Source: Carcharhinus longimanus
Lineage: Eukaryota
Assembly: GCA_030264375.1 (NCBI GenBank)
Contig: JASCQW010000027.1
Coordinates: 26,760,105-26,824,104 of the forward strand
Reading direction: 5' to 3'
Length of the DNA: 64,000 bases
Made by a program: the position numbers and the translations under genes. How positions within the stretch are numbered: the stretch's first letter is position 1; every line of letters starts with the position of its first letter. Under the pieces are notes generated by a model. It was given only the letters and a program-made list of their open reading frames with translations. It ran no database searches and was not told where the DNA came from. Of the stretch, positions 37,611 to 54,250 are shown in pieces.

Positions 37611-40600
37611 AAGTAGATTAGCAAGAAAAAACTCGATATCCGAAATGGATATTCCATTGTTACATTTTAAACTTTTTTCTTATTATAAGCATCTTTAAAA
37701 ATAATGGATGTACGAAACATTGTTTTGTAGCCAATCTTCGTATTGTGCTTCTTGCATTTATTGTACAATTGTAGCCAATTTTTGTATCATCCTTCTTGCT
37801 TTTATTTAACAATCATTTTAAGGAACATGTCTCTGTATTCCTTGTTATTTTTGTATATCATCAGGGCATTATGTTAACATCCTTTTGAGGTAGATTAATA
37901 ATTTTTAAATGTGAATTAAAATGTTGAAAAATAACTCAAATATTTCAAAGTCAAAAAAAACATTTTGGCAAGTTATAACTAAAGCACAGATTTATGTGTT
38001 TGAATGCTTCTGAGAAACTTAATTTTATAGGTTTAATTTCAGCAGACTTATTCAATGTACGAAAAAATTCAATCATTTTTTATGCCATGACAACAAAATA
38101 CTAAAAATTTTTAAACCCTTTTTAAAAAAGTCAAGGCGAAATACCAGTACATGATTCAAAAGACAGTTACTATCAAAATTAAAACATTAGATAAATAGTT
38201 GGTTCATACATCTCTCTAGACCATTTCATAGAAAGAATGTAAGTTTGAACATGAAACCTTGAGCTAGAGCAGTACAAGCATAAAAAGTGTTCAAAAGTCT
38301 ATTTCATCTGCACATCTTAAGTTCAAATGCAAAAAGCAAATCAAATTTACATGAATTACTTAGAAAATGTTTTGTGTTTGAGGCTAATGGTTAGGAGTAT
38401 GCAAATGATATGGTATTCAATAGTAGCAGTTGCACCATCCTAAATGCAGTTCAGATTGTTTCTTTCCTGGCTAATTACCTTTGGCAATAGATTATTTTAA
38501 ATTACATGCAGGTCTTACAATAATTTATATTTTAAAATATAGTTTTATGTAATAGGCTACTTTCAATTCAACACCCCACTCCCCCACATTCTTCATCCCC
38601 TTTTCTTGTTTATACTACAACTAAGAAATCCACATAAATAATACATTTTTACTCCATCAATTTTAAGATATCAAACATGAAGCTTAACTACAGGTGATCT
38701 GTTGGTTATATTCAGTTAAGTTTTGTGAAGATGTTTGCACAAATGGGTGAAAACTAGGAGTTATTTAATTCTCATAAAGGAACATTTAAATAGTCATCTT
38801 TCGAAAAGGGGATAACTTGAAAAATACATCCTGAGGTTTTGAAAGTATCAAGATGCATTAAACAGTTCCAAATTCAAAAATGCAAATATTGCTTTAAAAC
38901 CTGCCCCTTTCAATCACTTGAATGTGGAATAAATGTCCAAGAATACAGGATGACAGCTCTACAGAAGGCCTACAGAGACAATAACAATTACTGCAAAACT
39001 GGCAAAAAAAAAATGCATCTTTTTACACCAGCACAGAATCTTTTGAACAATTGGATGCCCTTAAATACGTTTGTTTAAAAAAAATGCATATGCCCACTGT
39101 GTTAACTAATAATGTTATTCATCTCATAGGACAAACAGATAAATATGATTTCACATAACACTCATTTATGCAACTTATTTAATTTGCGAAACACGTGCAA
39201 CAGTTCCAACTAAAATCCATTGGAACACATGGCGAGGGGAGAGGGAAGGCTCTTACATGGCAGCATAACCAGAAAGAGGCATTATCGGAGCGGAATCCTT
39301 AGATATGTAACGATTCAAACCATTCCCAACAAATAATTCCGTCCAACAAAAGACAATTTGCTTCCTTATAAACCATGAGTTTACAATTCAAATGTCGTTG
39401 AGCCATTCTAATAAACGCAAAGCACACGTTTGTGTCTTAAAACAGATCTGAAGATGTGGAATATCATTTTGAGGAGGGGGTAGAATCGAACTCTTAACTG
39501 GTTTCTGGCCACAGCCGAGCCCTTACGTTGAGGCAGAAACAAAAATTTATTTTTGCCCTCCCCCCAAAAAGAAAATGCTAATTGTATTAAATTAGACAAG
39601 AAACATTAACTTAAGTAAAGACTCGAATGGAGATTTGAAGCTCGCCTCTGTGGTGGCAACAGTCCTGAGCGAAGCATGCAACAGGAGCACGAGGGTGCCA
39701 AGCAGCTCAGCCCAATCCCTTTCCTTCTCCTGAGCTTGCAGCTGCCTTTTGGGTCTGTAAAGCAATCTTACGAGGTCGTAAACCCACGCTTAACGACCCA
39801 AGGAAAGGTTTAGAGAAAGGAGAAAAGAGGGAACGGAGAAGAAATCAGAGCTTCCGACTGCATACAAGCATTGGGAAGGGGCTGCTATAGGAGACCAGGG
39901 ACATGTAGCTGCACTGTGGTCACAACCGGTTTAAGAGTTCGATTCTCTATGCCTTCCCAAAACATTCTATTTCTCACCTTCAGATCTGTTTTTTGTCAGT
40001 TGGGGGGTGGGGGTGGGGGGGGGGGCGGTGGGATCGAGGCTGGCTGCAAAGTATCTAGTCCCATCTCTCTGTGTACCTAGCTCTCCATTCTAAAAAAAAC
40101 ACTCGTTGGTAAGACAGTGGACAGACACCTCGCACGGCCTCATATCAATAATCCAAAAGTTTCATTGACTAAAGTAATTACTCCTCCAGATATCTTCCGA
40201 AGCCAATTGTCACACAAATTAAAAGGGGCAACAAATAGAGGGGGAATTCCTATTTCACTCCCCAAGATTTATAAGAAAACGCAGTTAAATAAACAGGGGG
40301 GTTGCATTTCAAAGCATTCCGTCTCATAAATAGAATAGGGGGGATTGCTACATGTCAATATCCGTTCCTCTCTCGATATTTCCCCGTATAACAGTGAGCC
40401 CAGCATTTCCGGGTTTCACCTCTGACCTCCACAAACAAATCGTTAGTTTGATATTAGCAACCGGCAGAGCAAAACGTGCGTATGCGCCTTCCCCATTCAA
40501 CTTCATTTATTCACCGCACTTCCTCCGTCGCTGTGTATTTTTTTAAAAAAATATATAAACATATCGTTTGCACACTCACCCCGCACGGATAAAAAACATT

Positions 40601-40946
40601 CTGTGCAAACAAAAAATATTTTGCCAGGCACATTCGACCGCTGCCGCCTTGATATCTCCTTTCCAGGGCTCACGAAGCCAGGCAAGGGCAACATTTAAAA
40701 ACAAGCACCTTATTTACAAGTGTACGCTCCATGGAAGCCGGCTACGGCTCATACCATACCATACACAAATCTGTTTACACCAATCGCCTTGTGTAGTGGC
40801 AGGCTTTGAAATGTAACTTTTTGACTGTTTTTTCTACACAAACAACACCCATCCACGACTCCCCCACCCCCAAACAAAAACGTAAAACATTCAGGTATAA
40901 AATAAAAAATGAATGAATGAAGCAGACGGAATTATTGCCAACTTAC

Positions 40947-41128
40947 TTGGTGCACGAAAACGTCCACAGGCGATTCCAAGGGGGTGCCTTCCCGACAGGT
41001 CATGGAGATAAATCCGAATCCCATTCTAACGTTGAACCATTTACAGTGGCCTGATCCCTGTTGGATTTGAGATTCTTCTTTCTCTGTCAATTTTCTTTTT
41101 TCGTCTCCAGCACCTTTACCCGCCCCTC
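40947..41128 (-). CDS. LIN28B: LIN28B exon 2, N-terminal half of the cold-shock domain
   Basis: GGAGKGAGDEKRKL..GSGHCKWFNVRMGFGFISMTCREGTPLESPVDVFVHQ contains RNP1 (GFGFI) and RNP2 (DVFVH). Acceptor ttgtccag (phase 1), donor CAA/gtaagt (phase 0), 182 nt. GHCKW, GFISM and REG.PL are B-paralog residues (LIN28A has GICKW and GFLSM). Confidence 0.95.
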
Positions 41129-42065
41129 CTGGACAATCACACACACACAGACAAGACACATACAGGGGGAAGAGAGAGGGGAAAAAAGGTTTCAATTCAT
41201 CTGATGTTAACAAAGGAAGGGGGCATCATTAACAAAATACATTTCAAAATAAGCTTCTGGGAGGAGGAACACTTGGCATCGCTCTAGACATTGGCTGAAG
41301 CCTCAGTGCAAAGCCCTCGCAATATCGATCTGAGTCCATGTGCAATGCTGCCAAAAGAACACTCCATGTTGAGATTAGCCAAACCGTACTAACTGGAATG
41401 AGACTGGTTTAAGACGGATCCCATCTCCCGCAGAAACCACTATCACACCGGCTCGGCGTTTCTTCCTCCCCTCTTCCCGCAACATTCAACAGCGTCGATC
41501 GCGACAGCTCCCACCCGCTCTCCCCAGTCTCCAACCTTCCTTGTGTGCGGGCTTTTTTTTTGTAAAAACGACTTTCCACTAAAAAAAAGCTTCAGTATGA
41601 CACTGGAAAGAATTGGGAGAGCATCCAGCGTGCGTTAACTGTACTCCCAATCAAACTTAAGGGGCAGGTGCCTTCCACACACTTAACACTCAAACTAAGA
41701 GGGGGGGGGGGGGGGAAAGAGAGATATATATATATAAAAAAGCTGAACTGAATGGCACACAAACAGTCCATACAATAGCCCCTCAGAAAGCCTTTGAAGT
41801 TCTNNNNNNNNNNNNNNNNNNNNNNNNNNNNNNNNNNNNNNNNNNNNNNNNNNNNNNNNNNNNNNNNNNNNNNNNNNNNNNNNNNNNNNNNNNNNNNNNN
41901 NNNNNNNNNNNNNNNNNNNNNNNNNNNNNNNNNNNNNNNNNNNNNNNNNNNNNNNNNNNNNNNNNNNNNNNNNNNNNNNNNNNNNNNNNNNNNNNNNNNN
42001 NNNNNNNNNNNNNNNNNNNNNNNNNNNNNNNNNNNNNNNNNNNNNNNNNNNNNNNNNNNNNNNNN

Positions 42066-42205
42066 ATCAATCTAGCGTCAGAGGATTGAGGGATCAAAAA
42101 TGTCGCAATCGCCAATGCTCGCATGGTCTAACGTGCTTTTCCCCTCGTTAGTCACCCCCCCTCCTCCTTTTTTCCTGGCCTTGGCACACACGTGACTCGT
42201 CAATT
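42066..42205 (-). other. LIN28B: LIN28B exon 1 5' leader; start codon and donor inferred to lie in the gap 41804-42065
   Basis: Minus strand aattgac.agtcacgtgtg..aaagcac.ttagaccatgcgagc..tagattgat matches my recollection of the human LIN28B 5' UTR; the implied intron 1 is about 0.8 kb. Confidence 0.7.
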
Positions 42206-42275
42206 ACATGCTTTCTTGCCGCTAATTACACATCGCAGTCTTCAGAGGCAGCAGTACAGAGCCAATCGGCCTCTC
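42185..42275 (-). promoter_or_regulatory. LIN28B core promoter: E-box and CCAAT box
   Basis: CACGTG at 42189-42194 (GTCACGTG on minus); AGCCAATCGG NF-Y-type site with CCAAT at 42262-42266. Confidence 0.6.
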
Positions 42276-44924
42276 CTGTAACCTGCCACCGCAATAATCG
42301 ATGATCCCTCCTCCTCACTCCCCTCACCACCACATCCACCCCCCCAAAAAAAATCCTCCAGCTTTTCTATCCAGCTAATTTGTCCGACATTTTTCAATGA
42401 ACCCCGGTCAGACTTAAAGCTACAGGGTCTCTCTCTCTCTGTCTCTCTTTCCTCCCGTTGTTTAGCTTTCTGTCGGAAATGTCAACCTACATATATATAT
42501 AAAATAAACTAACCACAGATCAACTGTTACGACAAACACCATGGGCTGATCACGCTGCGTTGATTTCTCCAATCGCCTGTACATTTGGCAAAAAAAATGC
42601 TTACAATTGATGCAGTGTAAGCCTTTTCCCTGAATGTAATATTCTGGTATCAGTATATTAAGTATGGGAAGAGCAATTTTTTTAAAAAATGTGCAAAAGA
42701 GTGCCGGTTGTTTTATGTAGTCGCATTCAGAGACGATTTGGGCAGGAAATAAATCAAAGATTTCGCAAAGATATTTAATAGCTTCATTCTTAATGGGTGT
42801 TGTGTGTCTGTATGTGTGCGCGCGCGCGGGGAGGGGGGTGGTGGTGTTCTGTTGTTGGGTGCCTCCCCCTAGGCAAGGTGGTATCATCCGAATTTAAGAT
42901 GTCATTTTCAAATGGTCTCCGTTTAAACTATAAAACGCTTCATCAATTACGCCAGGCGTACATGATGCCTTTATTTCAGGATGCCAGTGGCGAGTGCAGC
43001 AACAGAGAGGGAGAGGTGCCTTTTTTCAAGCATTGTTCTCTTTGAGGACACGTGTATGGGGACGGGGGGGGGGGGGGGGGGGTGGGGGTGGNNNNNNNNN
43101 NNNNNNNNNNNNNNNNNNNNNNNNNNNNNNNNNNNNNNNNNNNNNNNNNNNNNNNNNNNNNNNNNNNNNNNNNNNNNNNNNNNNNNNNNNNNNNNNNNNN
43201 NNNNNNNNNNNNNNNNNNNNNNNNNNNNNNNNNNNNNNNNNNNNNNNNNNNNNNNNNNNNNNNNNNNNNNNNNNNNNNNNNNNNNNNNNNNNNNNNNNNN
43301 NNNNNNNNNNNNNNNNNNNNNNNNNNNNNNNNNNNNNNNNNNNNNNNNNNNNNNNNNNNNNNNNNNNNNNNNNNNNNNNNNNNNNNNNNNNNNNNNNNNN
43401 NNNNNNNNNNNNNNCGTTGCTGCCCAATGCATTGTCCATTACCATGCGTTTTTTGCTCCCAAAAAAACTGGCCTGACGCCTCGGCGCCAACCAGTCTGAC
43501 CAATTGTAATGGGCAGTTTGCACTTAAATGCCTTGTTTGCCGCTCTAACATCCAACGTTTTAAATCGGCGCAACATTTGATTTTGCACAACCTGCACTGT
43601 TGTCCCTAAAGTGTGTATGTGTGCGCTGGTCAAGTATTGCCCGCCGGCTGTAGGACATTTCTGTAAAGGGGTTGGGACGGGGAGGAGCGGGGGGGGCGGT
43701 GGAGAGAGTAACTAACTAAAGTCGAAGCTCTCAGCACTGAAATTCCTTTGAAGTTTTCAACCGTAAATTTCCTATAGGTTATTTCAACAGAGCGTGAGTT
43801 GTGGCCCAATCCCTAAAGCGACCTAAAAATGGTTGAGTTTGTTGGCTCTTGTCTGTGATCACTCCAGTTGCTCGGCAGTGCTGCTTTGTACTAGCCCATC
43901 GATTACATTTTTTTATATAAAAAAATCGTCAAAATATTTAAGAAGAATCCCTTACACGTTTTATATATATAACCTTCCATCTCACAGATTGTTTACGAAC
44001 GAAACTGCGTGCACTTAACAAAAGCCCACAGGACCCATTGATATTTTATATATATTTATACATAAACCTGCCTTCTTCAGAGTTAAGTGTATTCATTGCA
44101 AACGCAATGAAAATCAATTTTAAAACCTTTTTACGAATACACAGTGAGGAGGGAGCGAATAGTGTCGTCTTCGTTTTAATTTGTTTGTTCGTGTCCTAAT
44201 TATGTGAACTGTCTGGACTTGTAATGCCGGCCTCGGGAAGTTAAGGATGTTTCTAAATTCCTGAGATTCTTAAAGACCCCGTTAAGAGTGTTTTTTAAAG
44301 GGGGGGGGAGAAGTATGGAAATATTTCATTTGCTTCCCAAACTCATAGATGAGCCCCGCCACAACCCGCCCCCCCCCCCACACACACACACACACACAAA
44401 CACCACCCACCCACCCAAATACAAATCGGGAAAGTTAATTATAACAAGCACTACTGATTTATCCAAATTTTTCCTTTAATACTTGATCCCCTGACAAGCG
44501 GTCGACAGAAGGGGCTGTTTTTAGGCTATTCCTCGTATTAGGAGAATTAAGGTCGGGTCAGCGGAGTGGGCAACGGTGTCAGATGTTATCGAGTCATTCA
44601 TTTCCTGAGAGAGGTCTCCAGCCTTTCAAGTCAGGCAAAGGTATAGCTTTGGTCAGCTGGGAAGTCCACATTCCAGCTTTATCCCATTCAGAAAGAATCA
44701 GCCGAGTTGTTCTTTGTAAAGAAAGCTTTTTTATATGTCTTATCTTTTAACAAAATACCCAAAAAAAAAAGCTTGGGGAATTTAACCACGTTTTCTAGTG
44801 AGCATTTCTGTATTTGCACGAAGATATAGCTTAAGTCTTTATTGCTGAATCCGCACGTGCTGGTTGGTGCATTTCCCCTGAAAGGTCCAATTCAAAGCTA
44901 AGTTTAAATGCTCGCCCCACCCCT

Positions 44925-45050
44925 TGTAACACTATATCATGCATCCTTTCCTTCTCCCCGACGTACTCTATGAACGGTATATTTTGTCTGTAGAACGCGC
45001 AAGAAACAATACTTTTCACTGTATTCCAGCGGGTGACAATCAATCAAGTC
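44925..45050 (+). mobile_element. Rex1-type LINE 3' tail
   Basis: gcgcaagaaacaatacttttcactgtat..gtgacaatcaatcaa. Confidence 0.75.
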
Positions 45051-45080
45051 ACTAACGGAGAACCGGCTTTACAGCAAGTT

Positions 45081-45220
45081 TAAAAGCAAATTACTGCGGA
45101 TGTTGGAATCTGAAACCAAAGCTTTGACAAAGGGTCATCTGGACTCGAAACGTCAGCTCTTTTCTCTCCTTACAGATGCTGCCACACCCTGCTGAGATTT
45201 TCTGGCAATTTTCCTTTTCA
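45081..45220 (+). mobile_element. Penelope-type short repeat, family 2, with hammerhead motif and inverted end segment
   Basis: gct-TTGACAA-a-gggtc.atctg.gactc-GAAA-cg-TC-agc at 45121-45157; 45081-45120 is the reverse complement of the family's 3' end. Confidence 0.78.
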
Positions 45221-45439
45221 TTAGAGCATGTTTACTTTGTTAGTGAGGACACATCGCGTTTCTACGGTTCTGATGATAATGTGAACATGTTAATGTTCTG
45301 TGTCGCATTCAACAATGTGAGTATAAACTCCAAAAGCCAATTCGCCCGATCAGATTTACGCGTTAAAAATTGCACCATTCGTACACATCTACTTTCTGTT
45401 CGATCATGTATCTTGTGTCATTCAGGACACTTAAAAGCA

Positions 45440-45765
45440 ATAACGTGCATTGAGGAAGCACCTTTCTTGACCTCAGGATGTCACACGGTGCTTTCCAGCC
45501 AGCGGAATGTCACTGGAAGGCGGGACATTTGTGATGCAGGAAACATTCCCTCCTCCAAACGAGTCCTCGCCCACATCAGAGAGAGAAGGACCTGGTCGTC
45601 AGTTTTGATGGCATTCAGCGAGGAACGAATACGGGCCAGGAAACGGGGCACAGCTCCCATCTTCGCCTTCAAAATCGTACCACAGGAGAGGGTGTGCCTT
45701 CCCTTGGTCGACTCTCAGCTTTGGAGCGGGACATGAACCTATCACCTTGCGACTCAGCTATCTGA
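45440..45765 (-). mobile_element. DeuSINE-like SINE, degenerate, CpGs retained
   Basis: gcacctttc.tgacctcaggatgtc..gcttt.cagcca..ggagcgggac.tgaacc..accttgcgactcag. Confidence 0.55.
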
Positions 45766-45864
45766 ATCAAGAAGGCAACCCTATATTTGTAACATCTATT
45801 TAAAAAATGTTTTGAACCTGATTTATTTAATAGCTATCGAGCAGCAAAGCACGGCGTCATTCAG

Positions 45865-46335
45865 TAAAAGATGACCCTTCGTCTGAGCTCTGAAATCCAA
45901 ATCCGAAGCGTTGGCTCTATTCTCTCTCCACAGATGCTGCAAGACCTGCTGAGATTTTGCAGCATTTTCTATTTTTGTTTCCGATTCCAGCCTCCGCAAT
46001 ATCCGCTTTTGTCGTTCAATAAAGGTTATGTTCCGAAATTGGGAAGAATAACTGACATTTATATAGACTTAATCCCAGCAACATTCAATATCTACACCTG
46101 CCCGAGAGAAAATGCTGGAAAATCTCAGTAGGTCTGGCAGCATATGTAAGGAGAGAGAATAAAGCTGATGTTTCGAATCCAGGTGACCCTTTGTCTAAGC
46201 ATATGTTTGAGTTTTGACATAGATTCATCTGGACTCGAAATGTCAACTCTTTTCTCACCTTACAGCCGTTGCCAGACCTGCTGAGATTTTCCAGCTTTTG
46301 TTTTTCTTTTTAAATACTGCAGATGCTGCAAATCT
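45865..46335. mobile_element. Cluster of family-2 Penelope-type repeats in both orientations
   Basis: Plus copy about 45900-46012, minus copy 46105-46200, plus copy 46212-46305. Confidence 0.75.
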
Positions 46336-46559
46336 TGACCTGCTTTTCGTTGAGATTGCTACATTTTCGGTTTAAGAGAAAGTTTAAAAAAATACAGTTG
46401 TGAAGATATTGATGCAAATATTGACGTTATATTTCTGAAATATCATATTTGCCTAAAAAAAATCAAAATAAAAGTAGTGTGGGGGCGGGGTGGATTGGGT
46501 TAAATAGTTATCAGTAAAAAAAAGTTCTTTTAGAAAAGCCTAATCACTGATGTCGAATT

Positions 46560-49500
46560 ATTAAAATTTTCCAAAGCGCGGCATTGACTCCTCAGTGGAT
46601 GTTAACAAGTGATTCATTAGTGTTGCAAATTAAAGCGGAACGCATCCTTTCAAAAACCGCGTTCCCCCTGAAGAGCAACTGAATGAGTCATGCACATTGT
46701 CAAGATTTTAATGTTGTGTTTCTTCCTCCAGCCCCGTGAAAGTGACGGTCTATAGATCCTCCTATCATCCACGCTACCCGCCGCTCTATCGGCTGACTCT
46801 ACATGCGGGCTAATGTATCCGTCTTTGCAGCCGTTCCCCCTCCACCCCCTGCCATCTCCTGTGCGATTGGACTCCTTGCTTTTTACTGTCGTTGAGGGAG
46901 CTGGACAAGACGAATGAGATGCTGTCTATGCTGCCGGTGACTCTTAACAGCAACAGATCTTTCGAGCTAGGCGTGGGGGAAGAGATGTTACTTCCTCGTA
47001 CCACCAGGACCTGTTCACCATACATTCACTATTGGCTAGCGAGCAGGGGCCAGGACTCTCTCCGCATCACAACCATTAGAGTAAACAGCCTGAACCGCAT
47101 TATTCGTGAATTTTGAAAAGGGCTACATGAATCGGTGACATTTCTTTCATCCGTGTACACACCACACGCCACGACCTGGAGTTGATGCGTGGGACTCCAT
47201 TCATTAAAAAAACATGATTTAGTGGGGCCTGTTTGCATGGTGGATTCACCAGCGGGAGGCTGAGAGATAGGGCAGTGTGTCCAATGAAATGTGATACCAT
47301 AAAAATTGGCAGCATATATTTGTCCCCTTTAGCTGAGAGCGTGAGGGGCAGGGGGTGTCCACCGAATATATCACTTCCCAACTGAGAAGGGGGAAATTCA
47401 GGATGATGAATGTGGTGACCAGCCATGATCTTAATGAATGGCGGAGTAGGCTCGAAGGGCCGAATGGCCTACTCCTGCTTCTAGTTTCTGTTTCTGAATC
47501 GCAAGAGATGAATTTGGAGAATGGTTACCATGGTCCAACACTGCCGGGCTTGTCGCCAACTTTATTTGCGGGCTCCAACAGGATTTCTATACTTAAAAAA
47601 ACCAACCTGGTGCACTATTGTCCTTTTAGGGAAGGAAATCTGCCATCCTTACCTGGTCTGGCCTACATGTGATCTGGCCACCGCAATGTGATTAACTCTC
47701 AACTGTCCTCGGGAAACTAGGGATGGGCAATAGGTGTCACTGGCTGGCCAGCATTTATGTGCCACGAATGAATAAAGAGAAAGATAAAAGAGGACAAGGT
47801 GCAAACATCACTGTTAAGTTGGTGTAGCCCACATAGAATTTTACCAGGAGATCACCGAGAAGGTTTGGGAAGTAACGTCTCTATCTGCCAGATGGGTTGG
47901 AAATGAGAGAAATCTGATATATGCGCTGCCGTTTGGATTTCCCAGAAATGGTCCACGTAAGCGTTTATTTCAAACCTCTATCTGAGCGGATCTCAGGGCA
48001 GCAGAATTTAGAATGGTCATTTGAAAAGTTTTAGCAAGAGGTGACTCTTGTGACACAGGAGGAGGAGGCTGGTGACAGTTGCTTTTTAGTCGGGAGACTG
48101 GTGACAACCGAGACCTGATGGATCTGCCCTGATACCGAGATCAGACTGCCGGGGGTAGGGGTGGGGAAATCGGTGTGTTTGTAGCGTTGGGAGCCAGGCG
48201 AATCTATGCTCACAGTGCCTGCAGTGTCACTCCCGCTCCTCCACAGCCCCTCCCCGCCCCCCCCCCCCAACTTTAGTGCAATCCCGACCCGGAATTCCCG
48301 GATTGCCCAGGTGGCAAACCAAACCTCACGAAGGAGCAACCTAGGTACTAAAATTGTGGGGTCAGGACAGCTTGGTTCGTTTCCCGGAAATTTAAGTTAT
48401 TCGCCCGTGTTTGAATAAAACATGGTTTGAGCCAGGTATGCGTTTGTTACAGGGTGCCCGCTGATCCGAGAGTTATTCGATGATTCCACCTTTGGCGGGG
48501 CAGTGAGCAGCGCATTTGAAGCGTACTTTTAATCTTACAAACTGCCACTTTAGTTGACATACAGTGTGTGGATCCCGTTAAAAATCAGGAGGCGGGCATG
48601 ATTCATTATTGGTACATTTGATGTGATTATCACCTCTGACTCAATCCCATACCTGCTTCATCTTAGTGTACGGCTTGGCGTTTTTGACTTCGGAAATTGG
48701 AAACAGCGAGGCTGGAACCTAAGTTCCCTGAAGCACAAAACAGCTGCAAAGTAGCGATCTTTAAGATCAGCGATATGACCTCTCGCAGCTCTGCGCTAGC
48801 TAGGACACAGTTTGTAAGCATTTTGCGATGGTTTGGAACCGAATCGAGAACGAATCTTCAACGACACCACAGCGCGTGTGTGAATGACAAGCCGGTCTGC
48901 GTGCTGCAGTGGATTTGGACACTCTGGCAGGTACAGTGCCCCGATGGGTGAAGAACCGAAACGGAAAACTGGGGCAGGCTGGACCTCTGAGCACTGAACT
49001 GAGCAGCCACACTGTCCTTCCACTCAGAGAGACAGTGAGTGCTAGGTTGCTGTTCGCCCATGACGATTTATACATACGATATACAAAACTATAATTAAAT
49101 ACCCAACATAAAGACACGATTCCAGTACGCTTTACACGAAGCTCAGCGCTAATCATATTTTTGCATTCCGTTACCTTGTCCTTTGCACCATCGTTCCGAT
49201 GTGTTTTCCTGTCAATAATGTAACATGAGCTGTAACATTGACATTATGGTACAGGGAGAGACCGGCTGCAAAGTTCCAAATAAAAAACATGCATGGGACA
49301 TTTACGTAGGTTCCCAAGCGGAATCAGAGCAATTAAATATATGAGAGGGAGAGAAGATCTGACCACACCCCACTCCTTGTGCCTGACCTTCCCGCCCATT
49401 GTACCAAGAGATCAGCAGTATAACTCCGGTCTGCAGATCCCAATCCAGGAATAGGGCAGAGAGCAGGTGCCAAACAGCTAGGACAGAAGGCACAAATCCT

Positions 49501-51750
49501 TCCAAACTGGCTCCTGGAAATCGTGACAGGGCGGGAGGGAAATCTTCCAGCTTGCCGAAATCAGTAGGATATGGATTAAAACTGGAAAGTACAATTCTGG
49601 GTCCCAGCAATTGTCCCTCAAATAACTTAAACGTCCCGGACGAAAGATCAACTCTCTCTGGAAAATCATCTCCGGAGCAAGAACTTGCGAGAATTTCAGC
49701 AGGGAGCCGTCTGGTTTGGCGTTATTCCTTTTTTTACCCCATAGCGATAATTTTTTTTTATAACTATGACAATCTCAGTCGGGATATCCGCCGGAGGGCC
49801 GCCGGCGCCCGAGTGGGGGGGGGAGGGTCGAGGAAATCCGAACAACAGACTAACGTGGGTAACTTTTGGCCATTTCTTGCTCCGAGCCCTTTATTGGAGC
49901 ATGCAAGACAGTGTTAGATTTCCCCCTCCCCTAATGTTACCTCGCCGTTAACCTCAAGCTGGCCAGCTGATGAATTCTTTATGTTTCGCTGTGGACACGG
50001 TAGGGTTTGAAACGAATTGTATCTGAATTTTTCACAGTAACTTCGTTGCAGTGTCAATGGAAGGCTACTGGTGTCACTAATAAATAAACGTTAACGTCCT
50101 GGGAACGTTACTTTAACACCGACCCCCTCCCTCTGTGTGTGTCTCTCTCAATTGTCTTTTGCTAACAGCCCGCACAGGAGCAGACTATTTCAGAATGGAT
50201 TCGAGGAGAGTAAATGAATGTGAGCTCTGGCCGCGGCCCATTCAGTGCACTGAATCTGCCCAGCCAGCAGGGTTTTGAACTCAGACCTCAGGTTAGCTTG
50301 AATTAAGTCCACGGGAACGCCAAACCAGCGACTGGCCACGCCCTACACTTAGAGGATGAGGCTTGAACTAATCTCATTTCCAGCATCGGCACTATTTCAC
50401 TTTCAGTTGAAATAATCATGTTAACACACTGAGTGCCAAATAAACCTCAAGATTATTTTCCGAGTCAAACCCAGCACCCAATGACTGGGAGACTGCGATT
50501 CAGGGATGTGAGGGTGTGGTGTCATCTAGTTAATTCGCCGTGTTTGCCTGATCTTATTGGACTCTCGATGGCAGTAATCGCTAATGTTAAGAATGCCCGA
50601 GAGGGTGAGAAGTCCCACATCCCAGCTTTCAGCCTGTGCTTCCATTCATTGAGCAGAAGCTCCTACACCAGGCACTGTGCACCTAGAACAGGTAGGTATC
50701 GTTCTTTGGGAGCTTTACCAATTAAATGCCAAGTGCAACATCTGGCCAGAGCGCGGTAGGTTGAAGATACTAACTTGGGAGTTAACCAAAAAAAAGAATC
50801 TGGAAATGGAGCAGTGCAGCCGTATAGGTCAGTATCCTTTTCTAAACAAAATCAAACGGATTTCTCGTCTCCAGTCCGCAAAATGATAAGATCCTTCGCC
50901 TCTATTTAACTGAGACATTCAGCTTAATTTGGGTTCTCACTTTCCGGCTCTTTCTGACTACTTCCCTCCGCCCCAGCAAGATGCTGTCCTTGTAAGGTTA
51001 CAAATACAAGCACTAGCCGCCGGATTTAATATTGATTTCATACCGCGCGGGAATACTTGTTAAAATTCCTGTGGATAAACGTAGGATTGCCAACAGGATT
51101 GCAGCAACACCTTTATTCCATGACAGTTCGATTAAGAGCGGACTTCACGTTGTTTGAAACCCATTACATGTGGCAGTTCATTGTGAGCGGATTTTATCAT
51201 CGGTTGGGGTAGGTTAGTTTTGTTAACTTTAATTAAGGCAATTTAATGTGGGACAGCTACACCGCCTGTACTTCTGACTCGGCAGCTAGGTGCTGCACAC
51301 AGTGAATCCACCTCAAGTGAAAAAACATTCATTCATTGTGGGCGGGCACTAGCTCGCAACGCTTTCATTCATAGTCAGAGCTGCCAAGCAACTGGGAAAT
51401 GGATCGGCGATTAGCTGTGTCTGGAAAGTGATCCGAGTTCACCACTATATCCGCGCTGTATAATCAGCTTGGTAATCATGTCCCTAATCAGTCCCTAATT
51501 CTGGGAACTGGTAACTGAAGCTGCCTAATATCCACAATTAACACTAGCTTCTCTTTCCTGTATTATAAACTTTCATCTGGACAATGACCCATCATTCCAC
51601 GATCACTGTTTACGGTCGAGACAAAACTCGCTTTAAATCAAAATATCAGAAATAACACACCAAGCCTCGCAGACGAGAGAGGTTGCCTTATAGTTTGATT
51701 TTTAAAACGTGTTTTCTGCCGCCTATTGCTGTCCTGTGTTATAACTCCCC
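46560..51750. promoter_or_regulatory. Second CpG-enriched domain upstream of LIN28B
   Basis: Dense CG dinucleotides (e.g. ccggagggccgccggcgcccg at about 49790) with few young repeats; judged by eye. Confidence 0.5.
47590..47777 (+). mobile_element. SINE 3' half, same family as 25485-26000
   Basis: tttagggaaggaaatctgccatccttacctggtctggcctacatgtga..ctagggatgggcaata..gaatgaataaa. Confidence 0.75.
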
Positions 51751-51944
51751 CTGAGCGATTTTCTCCCAGTTAAAAGATGCAAACTTGCTCACAAGAATAT
51801 AATAGGTCCGTGTTTTGTACACCTTTGTCCTGTGTGAAATATTGAACATCTCATCATCAGAGACCACTGACAACTTGTCAGATATTTAAAAAAAACAGTA
51901 TGACTGCCATTCATTAATTTTCATAACGGGTGTTTTAAACAATA

Positions 51945-54250
51945 TTTTAAATGTATATTGTACCTTTTGACGTAACAGAACATCGAAGGATGTTATCAAA
52001 CAAAACAAAAAAGGACCTCAAACCACGTTGAGACAGTAGGACAAATGACCAAATGCGTGATCAAATGTCTTGAAAAAGGAAAACAAGGTGGAACACTGTA
52101 GGCAGGTAACTCCGGAGCTTAAGGGCCAAATAGTTCAAAACAGGGACATCATTGTTGGAGCCTTTAAAACCAGGAATGCTCGAGAAGCCAGAAGTAATGG
52201 AGGCAGGTATCTCAAGGCATGTGAGGCTAAGGGAACTTAGAAGATCAGGGACAGGGCATGAGGGATTCGAAAAAAAAGAATGAATTTTATCTTTTAAAAA
52301 GCATTTAGATAGTTATATGGGTACAATGGGTATAAAGGGATATGGGCCAAATGCAGGCAATAGGGATTAGTTTAAGGGGTTTAAAAAAAAAGGACGGCAT
52401 TGACAAATTGGGCTGAAGGGCCTGTTTCCATGCTGTAACCCTCTATGACTAATATCTAAACACCAGGAGACAGTGAACAGTTTTTTTTAAATTTATAGAA
52501 GCACAAGTATGAAGTTACTGTGAAAATCTCCTGGTTGCCACACTCCAGCGCCTGTTCGGGTACACAGAATTTAGCATGGACAATGCACCTAGCCAACATA
52601 TCTTTTAAAGTAATAATTTTTATTTATTAGTCACAAGTAGGTTTACATTAACACTGCAATGAAGTTATTCTGATAATCCCCTAGTCACCACATTCCAGTG
52701 CCTGTTTGGGTACACAGAATTTAGCATGGACAATGTATCAGTGATGTGGAGATGCTGGCATTGGACTGGGGTAAACACAGCAAGAAGGCTCACAACACCA
52801 GGTTAAAGTCCAACAAGCTTCTTTGGTAGCACAAGCCACTAGTTTTCAGAGTGGCTGCCCCTTTATCAGGTAAGTGGGAATTCTGTTCATAAACCAGGCA
52901 TATAAAGACACAAACTTTGTCTTTATATGCCCTGTTTGCAATGCATCAAACCAGCACATCTTTTGGAATGTGGGAGAAAGCACATGGAGGAAACACACAG
53001 TCACAAGGAGAACATACAGACTACACAAAGACAGGGACCCAAGCCAAGAATTGAACCCAGGTTCCTGGTGCTGAGGCAGCAGTGTTAACCACTGTGCCAC
53101 AAGATAATGGCCCCAGGGATGATGAGTGAATGGAACTTGATGTGAGCAAGGGCATGGGTAGCAGTACTTTGAAGGACACCGAGTTTAGAGGAAAGAAGGT
53201 GGGAGATGAAGCAGGAGGTCTAAATAGAATAACCAAGTCAAAAGATAACAAAGGTCCAGTTGAGGGTTGCAGTAGCAGATGAGCTAAAGGGCAGACCCCA
53301 AAGATGTTACAGTGGTAAAAATAAGCGATCATAGTTATGGTGCACTGTATCACTCATCTTGGTCAAATATGAAGTAGGTGTTTCAAAGAGCCTCAGGCAT
53401 TCGCCTGGGGGAAGGAGGAAGTTGGTAGCTTGGCAGGAGTGTTTGTGATGGGCACTGCCAAAAACATTAGCATCAGTCTTCCCCACATTCCTCCAGGGTA
53501 CCACAGTGGTTAACACTACTGCCTTACAACACCAGGGACCCAGGTTTGATTACTAGCTTGGGTCACCGTCTCTGCAGAATCTGCATTTTATCCATGTCTG
53601 TGTGGGTTCCTCCGAGGGCTCCAGTTTCCTCCCATGGTCCAAAAGATGTGCTGGTTAGGTGCATTAGCCATGCTAAATTTTCCTTCAGTGTATTCGAACA
53701 GGCACCAGAGTGTGACTGGGAGATTTTCACAGTAAGTTCATTGCAAGGTTAATACAAGCCTACTTGTAACACTACTAGATAAACTTTTAAGATACCCAAA
53801 GAGGACATTTTTGCTCACGCAGTACTGATGCTAGAATAAGCAGTCTAATTTTTTAGAAAAATAACAGAGAAACAGAGTGGTAATTGTGAGGTAGAGCTCA
53901 ATGTTGTCAGCGTGTACATGGGAAATATGAAGGACAAACGGTAGATGTTCGGGTGGGGATAAGGGATACCAGAGGTAATATTGAGAGAACAGGAAGTTAT
54001 TAAAAGTGATGCTCTGATTATGATGAGATAGGTATGAAGAGTCTTTAAGAAGTGGTGTAAGGGGTATCCAGTTATAGAAGGTTCAGGAGAGAATTGCAGA
54101 GCTGTAGGTCAAAATGCGGTGAAAGCTTTCTCATTGAACGTGAAGGGAAAAGTGCCAAGGTTAGAGATGGAAGAGGTTGCACAAGTAGGAACAAATCTGA
54201 ATTTAATGTACCAAGTGATGAAGAGTCACTGGAAGCCAGCAAGGCCAAGA
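51945..54250 (-). mobile_element. Old L2-like LINE remnant with nested CR1 tail (52295-52450), type-B V-SINEs (52490-53100 minus, 53497-53790 plus) and a Penelope end (52740-52935 minus)
   Basis: Purine-rich L2-like matrix (gaggtagagct..tgttgtcagcgt.tacatg), with SINE and Penelope motifs as seen elsewhere in the window. Confidence 0.65.

What the first reader, a model, noticed from the sequence alone, without database searches (positions are those of the whole stretch)
42066..42124. Candidate deeply conserved upstream or overlapping ORF in the LIN28B leader
Seen: an upstream AUG at 42124 with A at -3 (tagACCATGcg), open as MRALAIATFLIPQSSDARL until the gap. From recall, the human leader has the same AUG reading MRAKFVIAQNQDVRLM and continues out of frame over the main AUG. 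The shark sequence differs by a frame-preserving 12-nt indel and keeps MRA and F.I.Q..D.RL. If the frame relation holds, the shark ORF enters exon 2 as GAG GGG CGG GTA and stops at TGA 41089-41087. Inference: an ancient translational brake on LIN28B, possibly favouring downstream initiation of the short isoform that lacks most of the cold-shock domain, or encoding a micropeptide.
Basis: partly seen in the sequence, partly recalled or inferred. Interest (0 to 1): 0.7.

Follow-up and report, generated by a model that had tools for sequence, protein, structure and literature searches.

The report
Shark copy of LIN28B upstream ORF
A shark's LIN28B gene carries the same upstream start codon that mammals and bony fish have, which likely acts as an old brake on making the LIN28B protein; the element is already known from mouse, and an assembly gap hides whether the shark version overlaps the main gene in the same way.

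Summary
In detail: ATG 42124-42122 (minus strand), A at -3, 19 open codons to an N gap, about 1 kb upstream of LIN28B exon 2. It is the shark orthologue of the known Lin28b upstream overlapping ORF (mouse 'PLUM', 85 aa, PMC12657964; called vertebrate-conserved in PMC4712605). Database proteins confirm the recalled mammalian peptide and show the same start in teleosts and paddlefish; 28 of 31 readable distinct peptides cross the main AUG in one frame. The shark frame is not closed: the main AUG lies in the gap. A relative's 30 letters extend the ORF ten codons, in register with coelacanth; about 42 nt stay unread. In that frame the shark ORF would stop at 41089-41087 (about 60 aa), 29 codons before the mammalian stop. 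Amino-acid changes look neutral, and conservation runs upstream across a stop, so AUG and frame, not peptide, seem to be kept. Most likely a leaky-scanning brake (shown in mouse reporters, inferred in shark). The short-isoform idea is unsupported. Lead: fish and rabbit gene models join this ORF in frame to exon 3.

The parts
42066..42124 (-). First 19 codons of the LIN28B upstream ORF (uAUG 42124-42122), with a 4-codon insertion after MRA relative to bony vertebrates
   Evidence: AUG unchanged in the 5 relatives' contigs that cover it (X2, X10, X13, X17, X22)
42125..42145 (-). Conserved block in front of the uAUG: A at -3 (42127) and an in-frame TAG (42130-42128)
   Evidence: tblastn 9 of 10 residues identical to salmonid- and tetrapod-type entries across the stop (P0159, P0167, P0179); residue before the AUG is Thr in 16 and Ile in 1 of 17 records, i.e. 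A at -3
42189..42233 (-). Conserved non-coding block (42225-42199) with an E-box CACGTG at 42194-42189 and two tiny ATG-stop frames (42233, 42209); likely promoter or start of the transcript (that the mammalian start site lies here is recalled, not tested)
41804..42065 (-). Assembly gap (262 N) that is inferred to hold the rest of the uORF's exon-1 part, the main ATG of the MAEG isoform (predicted near 41993) and the donor of intron 1
   Evidence: relatives bridge it with 266 (X10) and 252 (X13) letters; 17 of 49 cartilaginous-fish entries begin MAEG but the expected junction motif has 0 matches in G000
41394..41424 (-). Coding part of an alternative first exon (MGSVLNQSHS, donor GT at 41393); transcripts starting here would bypass the uORF
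   Evidence: 9 of 10 residues identical to catshark isoform P0135
40947..41128 (-). LIN28B exon 2 (182 nt; phase 1 in, phase 0 out), N-terminal half of the cold-shock domain
   Evidence: 61 of 61 residues identical to Mustelus LIN28B P0212
41087..41089 (-). TGA that would end the uORF if the bony-vertebrate frame holds (about 60 aa); the stop matching the mammalian one is at 41002-41000
   Evidence: no change listed at 41087-41089 in 4 of 4 runs laid

Best explanation
This ATG is the shark counterpart of the known LIN28B upstream ORF and likely works as a cis-acting brake on LIN28B translation. Scanning ribosomes would meet the uAUG (A at -3, C at +4: a middling context) first; those that start there would read past the main AUG in another frame and stop in exon 2 (predicted about 60 codons), so they could not make full-length LIN28B, and only ribosomes that leak past the uAUG would. 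What is kept since the common ancestor of sharks and bony vertebrates is likely the AUG, its context and the frame, not the peptide. Shown here: the AUG, its context, orthology, the frame in bony vertebrates. Shown in mouse by others: translation and start-codon-dependent repression. Inferred: the shark frame, that the AUG is on the shark mRNA, and repression in shark.
For: Gene identity: exon 2 is LIN28B, exons 3 and 4 lie intact further on in G000. Orthology: position, first rank of 855 controls, 0 of 2000 shuffles, conserved block upstream. Frame: of 36 distinct peptides from 59 records, 28 cross the main AUG in one frame with 43, 44 or 45 codons, 2 are in frame, 1 in the third frame, 5 cannot be read. 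A 43-codon head plus the rodent exon 2 gives 85 aa (P0074, P0093), the length of PLUM. Mouse: Ribo-seq, Flag, antibody and MS (PMC12657964); repression lost on ATG-to-TAA and stronger with a better context (rebuttal text). Shark: 30 letters from relative X22 (10 of them also from X17) extend the ORF by ten codons without a stop; read by hand they match the tetrapod peptide for four residues and stay in register with coelacanth P0236, whose spacing to the main AUG (26 codons) equals the tetrapod spacing. 0 of 49 cartilaginous-fish entries begin with the uORF peptide, whereas the in-frame salmon copy is annotated so, which argues against an in-frame extension. Peptide not constrained: mean BLOSUM62 of changes -0.68 (75 changes) and -0.47 (75 changes, alignment-free subset) against neutral -0.36 to -0.63 and -0.02 for the folded LIN28B core.
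Against: About 42 nt up to the shark main AUG are unread; the last letters read (an A run) may be one base out of register with coelacanth, and against tetrapods the match shifts frame locally (by hand). The frame is not inviolable: one Salmo copy (4 records) and one piranha copy are in frame, one cyprinid-like contig is in the third frame. The tally is biased, since protein searches find only ORFs that are open and alike. No shark ORF was among the 26 hits of the full HMMER scan or the 8 and 25 hits of the two word-based profile searches. Conservation runs upstream across a stop codon and into the promoter block, so DNA-level constraint could carry the AUG along. The chemistry test cannot tell a neutral sequence from a disordered one: the LIN28B tail also scores -0.63. 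Within sharks there are only 4 changes (3 non-synonymous, 1 synonymous), too few to test.
Confidence: 0.62

Rival explanations
1. Same AUG, other outcome: in sharks an uncompensated indel in the unread 42 nt has moved the ORF to the third frame (stop TAA at 41118-41116) or ended it before the main AUG. It would still be a repressive uORF, but not a frame-conserved one.
For: Possible one-base offset at the end of the 30 letters read; frame changes in 3 of 31 readable peptides.
Against: In register with coelacanth for 11 codons (by hand); local shifts in this segment are compensated within a few codons elsewhere (P0152 against P0204; coelacanth against tetrapods).
Confidence: 0.2
2. Passenger: the AUG sits in a conserved promoter/leader element kept for DNA- or RNA-level reasons, and its translation does not matter in shark.
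For: Conservation upstream across an in-frame stop and at the E-box block; few changes over 42174-42290 in relatives; neutral-looking substitutions.
Against: Length changes between lineages are whole codons (43, 44, 45 codons, plus the shark's 4-codon insertion); A at -3 in 17 of 17 records; any AUG in good context on a leader captures ribosomes (established knowledge) and this one does so in mouse.
Confidence: 0.12
3. The ORF is kept because it is the coding start of a second LIN28B protein: when exon 2 is skipped, the uORF head joins exon 3 in frame and gives a LIN28B without the first half of the cold-shock domain but with both zinc knuckles.
For: Gene models with the head joined straight to exon 3 in rainbow trout (P0168), tiger barb (P0175) and carp (P0182, P0183), and through an inner donor in rabbit (P0178, P0184); shark exon 2 is 182 nt and exon 3 starts in phase 0, so the same join would be in frame here.
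Against: These are predicted models, not shown proteins; 0 of 49 cartilaginous-fish entries are of this kind (the searches could miss them); the head shows no sign of peptide-level selection.
Confidence: 0.2
4. The shark ORF makes a functional PLUM-like microprotein acting in trans.
For: Mouse PLUM is detected and has knockout and rescue phenotypes (PMC12657964); N-terminal likeness.
Against: Predicted stop 29 codons early; the main-frame residue pair that yields this stop varies among cartilaginous fishes (LA 14, LT 12, QT 10, RT 4, LS 3, LK 2 of 45 entries), so the C-terminal length is probably free; neutral-looking changes; the partner L1TD1 arose in eutherians (PMC4161310 abstract).
Confidence: 0.08

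Closest known systems
Lin28b uORF / microprotein PLUM (mouse; Hao et al. 2025, PMC12657964)
   Same: AUG in the LIN28B leader with a partial Kozak context; the mammalian ORF that starts MRAKF gives 85 aa in rodents by arithmetic, the published length (the paper's sequence figure could not be seen); overlap with exons 1 and 2 of the main ORF in another frame.
   Different: The paper claims conservation among mammals only ('zebrafish' 0 occurrences). The shark ORF has a 4-codon insertion, would end at about 60 aa, and has no L1TD1 to bind; frame, translation and repression are untested in shark.
Translated lin28b uORF in mouse ES cells (Popa et al. 2016, PMC4712605)
   Same: Footprints on a Lin28b uORF, called 'highly conserved in vertebrates', with repression suggested.
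   Different: Its Fig. S11 could not be read, so which species it shows, and whether a cartilaginous fish is among them, is unknown.
Overlapping uORFs as leaky-scanning brakes (general class; textbook knowledge, recalled)
   Same: Out-of-frame AUG whose ORF ends downstream of the main AUG, so that reinitiation cannot give the full-length protein.
   Different: Unusual depth of conservation of start and frame with free peptide change.
LIN28B-short isoform (reviews PMC10470845, PMC6029494)
   Same: Lacks the first 70 residues and a complete cold-shock domain, as an exon-2-skipped product would.
   Different: Described as coming from a different 5' exon, not from uORF-driven initiation; the primary papers were not held.

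Membership tests
LIN28B upstream overlapping ORF (orthologous element) | AUG in the leader of the MAEG first exon of LIN28B with A at -3 | tested here: met
LIN28B upstream overlapping ORF (orthologous element) | Homologous N-terminal reading | tested here: met
   first of 855 controls, 0 of 2000 shuffles by best score; next four residues match in a relative
LIN28B upstream overlapping ORF (orthologous element) | Runs over the main AUG out of frame | tested here: inconclusive
   main AUG in the N gap; 89 of about 131 nt read (window plus relative X22); in register with coelacanth except possibly the last bases
LIN28B upstream overlapping ORF (orthologous element) | AUG lies on the mRNA and is translated | not testable with these tools
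   needs shark 5'-end and ribosome-profiling data
LIN28B upstream overlapping ORF (orthologous element) | Start-codon-dependent repression of LIN28B | not testable with these tools
   shown for mouse constructs only
PLUM microprotein | About 85 aa, ending at the stop beside the FISM methionine of exon 2 | tested here: not met
   in that frame TGA 41089-41087 comes 29 codons before the matching stop at 41002-41000; not filed as PLUM protein
PLUM microprotein | Binds L1TD1 and controls its condensates | not testable with these tools
   L1TD1 arose in the eutherian ancestor (PMC4161310 abstract); not searched in G000
Conserved-peptide uORF (sequence-dependent) | Purifying selection on the amino-acid sequence | tested here: not met
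   substitution chemistry like neutral simulation (P 0.57-0.89), unlike the folded core; a rough, protein-only test, blind to disordered peptides; no dN/dS could be computed

The most novel reading that the evidence does not exclude
The LIN28B uORF dates from the ancestor of all jawed vertebrates and was kept for its start and frame: it brakes full-length LIN28B on the normal mRNA and becomes the in-frame N-terminus of a cold-shock-truncated LIN28B when exon 2 is skipped. The mouse PLUM function through L1TD1 would be a late, eutherian co-option of an old regulatory ORF, and frameshift knockouts of PLUM would also remove the fused isoform.
Probability: 0.22. Interest if true: 0.62.

Novelty: new member of a known kind. 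Interest (0 to 1): 0.36.

Why it matters
LIN28B sets let-7 levels and developmental timing and is reactivated in tumours. A brake on its translation that is as old as jawed vertebrates would mark dosage control as an ancient need, and it bears on an open point that a reviewer raised for the PLUM paper: how much is cis repression and how much is the peptide. A shark ORF that keeps the AUG but loses the last third of the peptide, in an animal without L1TD1, is a natural test of that question. The element itself is known, so the gain is in age and interpretation.

Tried and rejected
Closing the gap from the own genome: the leader has one copy only, a uORF protein query gave chance hits only (best E 0.16), the junction motif had 0 matches. 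Public runs: no RNA holder listed among 22 runs; this is no evidence either way. Metagenome scans for vertebrate leader DNA found nothing, so no dN/dS. ESM Atlas: no usable hit. RNA fold of 42066-42210: not more stable than shuffles (z 1.06, 170 of 200 fold as well); no structural explanation. LIN28A paralogue (L003): has a MAEG exon but 0 of 4 upstream ATGs in the 360 bases read stay open over its main ATG; only weak leader likeness (2 of 300 shuffles reach the score): not a pre-duplication feature as far as seen. Reinitiation at the in-frame ATG 41024 (A at -3, G at +4; 62 nt after the predicted stop) was considered; reinitiation after about 60 codons is generally poor (recalled), so it is kept as a minor possibility. 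My first reading of the 30 letters as a net frameshift against tetrapods was dropped after comparison with coelacanth. The distal first exon seen in other sharks was not found in the window. Earlier scan findings: none relevant. No structure or complex prediction was run.

Full report
Observation. On the minus strand the window has ATG at 42124-42122 with A at -3 and C at +4, an in-frame TAG two codons upstream, and 19 open codons up to a run of 262 N (42065-41804). It is the last ATG before the gap; two tiny ATG-stop frames lie at 42233 and 42209. Nineteen open codons are common by chance (855 of 2375 ATGs), so the case rests on homology.

The gene. 41128-40947 is exon 2 of LIN28B: the best database hits are shark LIN28B proteins and the translation is identical over 61 of 61 residues to the Mustelus entry P0212. 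Exons 3 and 4 lie intact downstream on the same contig, and a LIN28A-like paralogue lies on C146. Of 49 cartilaginous-fish entries 17 begin MAEG; that short first exon is not in the window and its expected junction motif has no match in G000, so it is inferred to lie in the gap. A further first exon (MGSVLNQ, 41424-41394) lies between gap and exon 2.

The ORF elsewhere. Gene models and unspliced contig ORFs in the protein collection start at the same AUG. Two word-based profile searches and one full HMMER scan gave 8, 25 and 26 hits. From all 292 stored proteins a motif filter drew 59 records with 36 distinct peptides (entries that start at a later Met were dropped by the filter): 28 cross the main AUG in one and the same other frame, after 43 (10), 44 (17) or 45 (1) codons; 2 run in frame into MAEG (one Salmo copy in 4 records, while the whitefish copy is out of frame; one of two piranha copies); 1 is in the third frame; 5 leave the exon early and cannot be read. 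Named sources include primates, rabbit, paddlefish, salmonids, cyprinids, plaice, goodeids and piranha. The residue before the AUG is Thr or Ile in 17 of 17 records that show it, so A at -3 is general. This tally is biased towards open ORFs. No hit was a shark ORF. The shark 19-mer ranks first of 855 window controls by best score and beats 2000 of 2000 shuffles, but not by mean score (97 of 2000 reach it).

Shark relatives. Contigs from seven distinct runs were laid; six, from six coded organisms, cover most of the uORF. Changes inside the 59 bases: 42102 and 42104 in all six (codon 8 becomes Lys, which anchors the 4-codon insertion; codon 7 silent), 42111 in two (Ala5 to Glu) and 42117 in one (Ala3 to Val). 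No gap falls inside it in five contigs; for X10 three inserted letters were not placed. The AUG is unchanged in the five that cover it. Two contigs bridge the gap with 266 and 252 letters. X22 gives 30 letters into the gap, X17 confirms 10. Read by hand they continue the ORF for ten codons without a stop, the first four matching the tetrapod peptide. In the frame that is the main frame in coelacanth they read I-D-A-E-D-stop-P-F-R-G-K-S against I-D-A-E-D-H-Y-S-Q-R-K-K in P0236: in register, with a possible one-base offset only in the final A run. Coelacanth has 26 codons from that Ile to MAEG, the same as follows from the tetrapod peptides. Applied to the window, the main ATG would be at 41993, 131 nt from the uAUG, in the common frame, and the ORF would have 47 + 13 = 60 codons and stop at 41089-41087. 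About 42 nt are unread, so this is a prediction; I put the common frame at about 70%.

Peptide or frame. Amino-acid changes among bony-vertebrate uORFs have mean BLOSUM62 -0.68 (24 rows, 75 changes outside the indel zone) and -0.47 (24 rows compared without alignment, 75 changes; the piranha, cyprinid-type and one locally shifted row left out), as in neutral simulations (-0.36 to -0.63; P 0.57-0.89) and unlike the folded LIN28B core (-0.02; 21 of 24 chosen proteins used). The disordered LIN28B tail scores -0.63 too, so the test cannot exclude a disordered peptide. Conservation continues upstream across the shark's in-frame stop and in a block at 42225-42199. In the common frame the shark stops 29 codons before the stop that matches the mammalian one (41002-41000), and the main-frame residues that create the early stop vary among cartilaginous fishes. 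Together this favours selection on start and frame over selection on the product.

Mechanism. Most likely a leaky-scanning brake: ribosomes that start at the uAUG pass the main AUG out of frame and are lost to full-length LIN28B. In mouse constructs repression was lost on mutating the ATG and grew with a better context (authors' rebuttal; the figure itself not seen). In shark every translational step is inferred. Transcripts from the other first exons would escape the brake. A second possibility came up in the data: gene models of trout, tiger barb and carp join the uORF head directly to exon 3, and a rabbit model does so through an inner donor; with a 182-nt exon 2 and a phase-0 exon 3 the same join would be in frame in shark. 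These are predictions only.

What is known. PMC12657964 (seen: abstract, introduction, first results sections, discussion, passages, the text of supplement 1, passages of the peer-review file; the sequence figure is a picture and was not seen) describes an 85-aa overlapping Lin28b uORF, conserved among mammals. A 43-codon head with the rodent exon 2 gives 85 aa, which ties it to this AUG by arithmetic. PMC4712605 (passages; supplement cut before Fig. S11) already called the lin28b uORF translated and highly conserved in vertebrates. PMC10470845 and PMC6029494 (passages) describe LIN28B-short; the former says it differs in its 5' exon. PMC4161310 (abstract) dates L1TD1 to eutherians. bioRxiv 10.64898/2026.08.12.739961 (one passage) only cites the PLUM work. 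Searches listed no paper on a cartilaginous-fish LIN28B uORF or on a uORF-exon 3 fusion, judged from listings alone; unseen supplementary figures may already show the shark sequence.

Verdict. Real, orthologous to a published element, frame in shark likely but unproven. New member of a known kind; interest 0.36. The boldest reading not excluded (old frame-selected ORF that doubles as the start of an exon-2-skipped isoform, later co-opted as PLUM) has probability about 0.22 and would deserve about 0.62.

Noticed in passing
window 41424-41394 (-): Alternative first exon MGSVLNQSHS, like the N-terminus of LIN28A; the paralogue L003 has the same pair of first exons (MAEG at 901, MGSVSNQQFG at 1301), so the two-exon layout predates the LIN28A/B duplication while the uORF was seen only in LIN28B.
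   Followed up: partly
proteins P0168, P0175, P0182, P0183, P0178, P0184: Gene models in trout, tiger barb, carp and rabbit join the uORF in frame to exon 3 (exon 2 skipped or cut short), giving a LIN28B with a broken cold-shock domain and a uORF-derived N-terminus.
   Followed up: partly
proteins P0177, P0154, P0167, P0171; P0109: In one Salmo copy and one piranha copy the uAUG is in frame with the main ORF and would give a 40-42-residue N-terminal extension; the whitefish and second piranha copies keep the usual frame.
   Followed up: no
proteins P0051, P0127, P0258: Lemur, slow loris and paddlefish models join about 36 codons of the uORF in frame to exon 2; a real inner donor or a modelling artefact.
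   Followed up: no
window 42233-42189 (-): Non-coding block conserved to salmonids with an E-box and two tiny ATG-stop frames; few changes in shark relatives.
   Followed up: partly
window 41024 (-): In-frame ATG in good context 62 nt after the predicted uORF stop; several shark, sturgeon and frog gene models start at this Met.
   Followed up: no
window 39000-52000: CpG-rich zone (observed/expected about 0.5-0.8 against 0.1-0.4 in most of the rest) that reaches about 10 kb upstream of the LIN28B leader.
   Followed up: no
window 41096: One contig of run X2 lacks one base in an A run of exon 2; probably a sequencing error, not checked.
   Followed up: no
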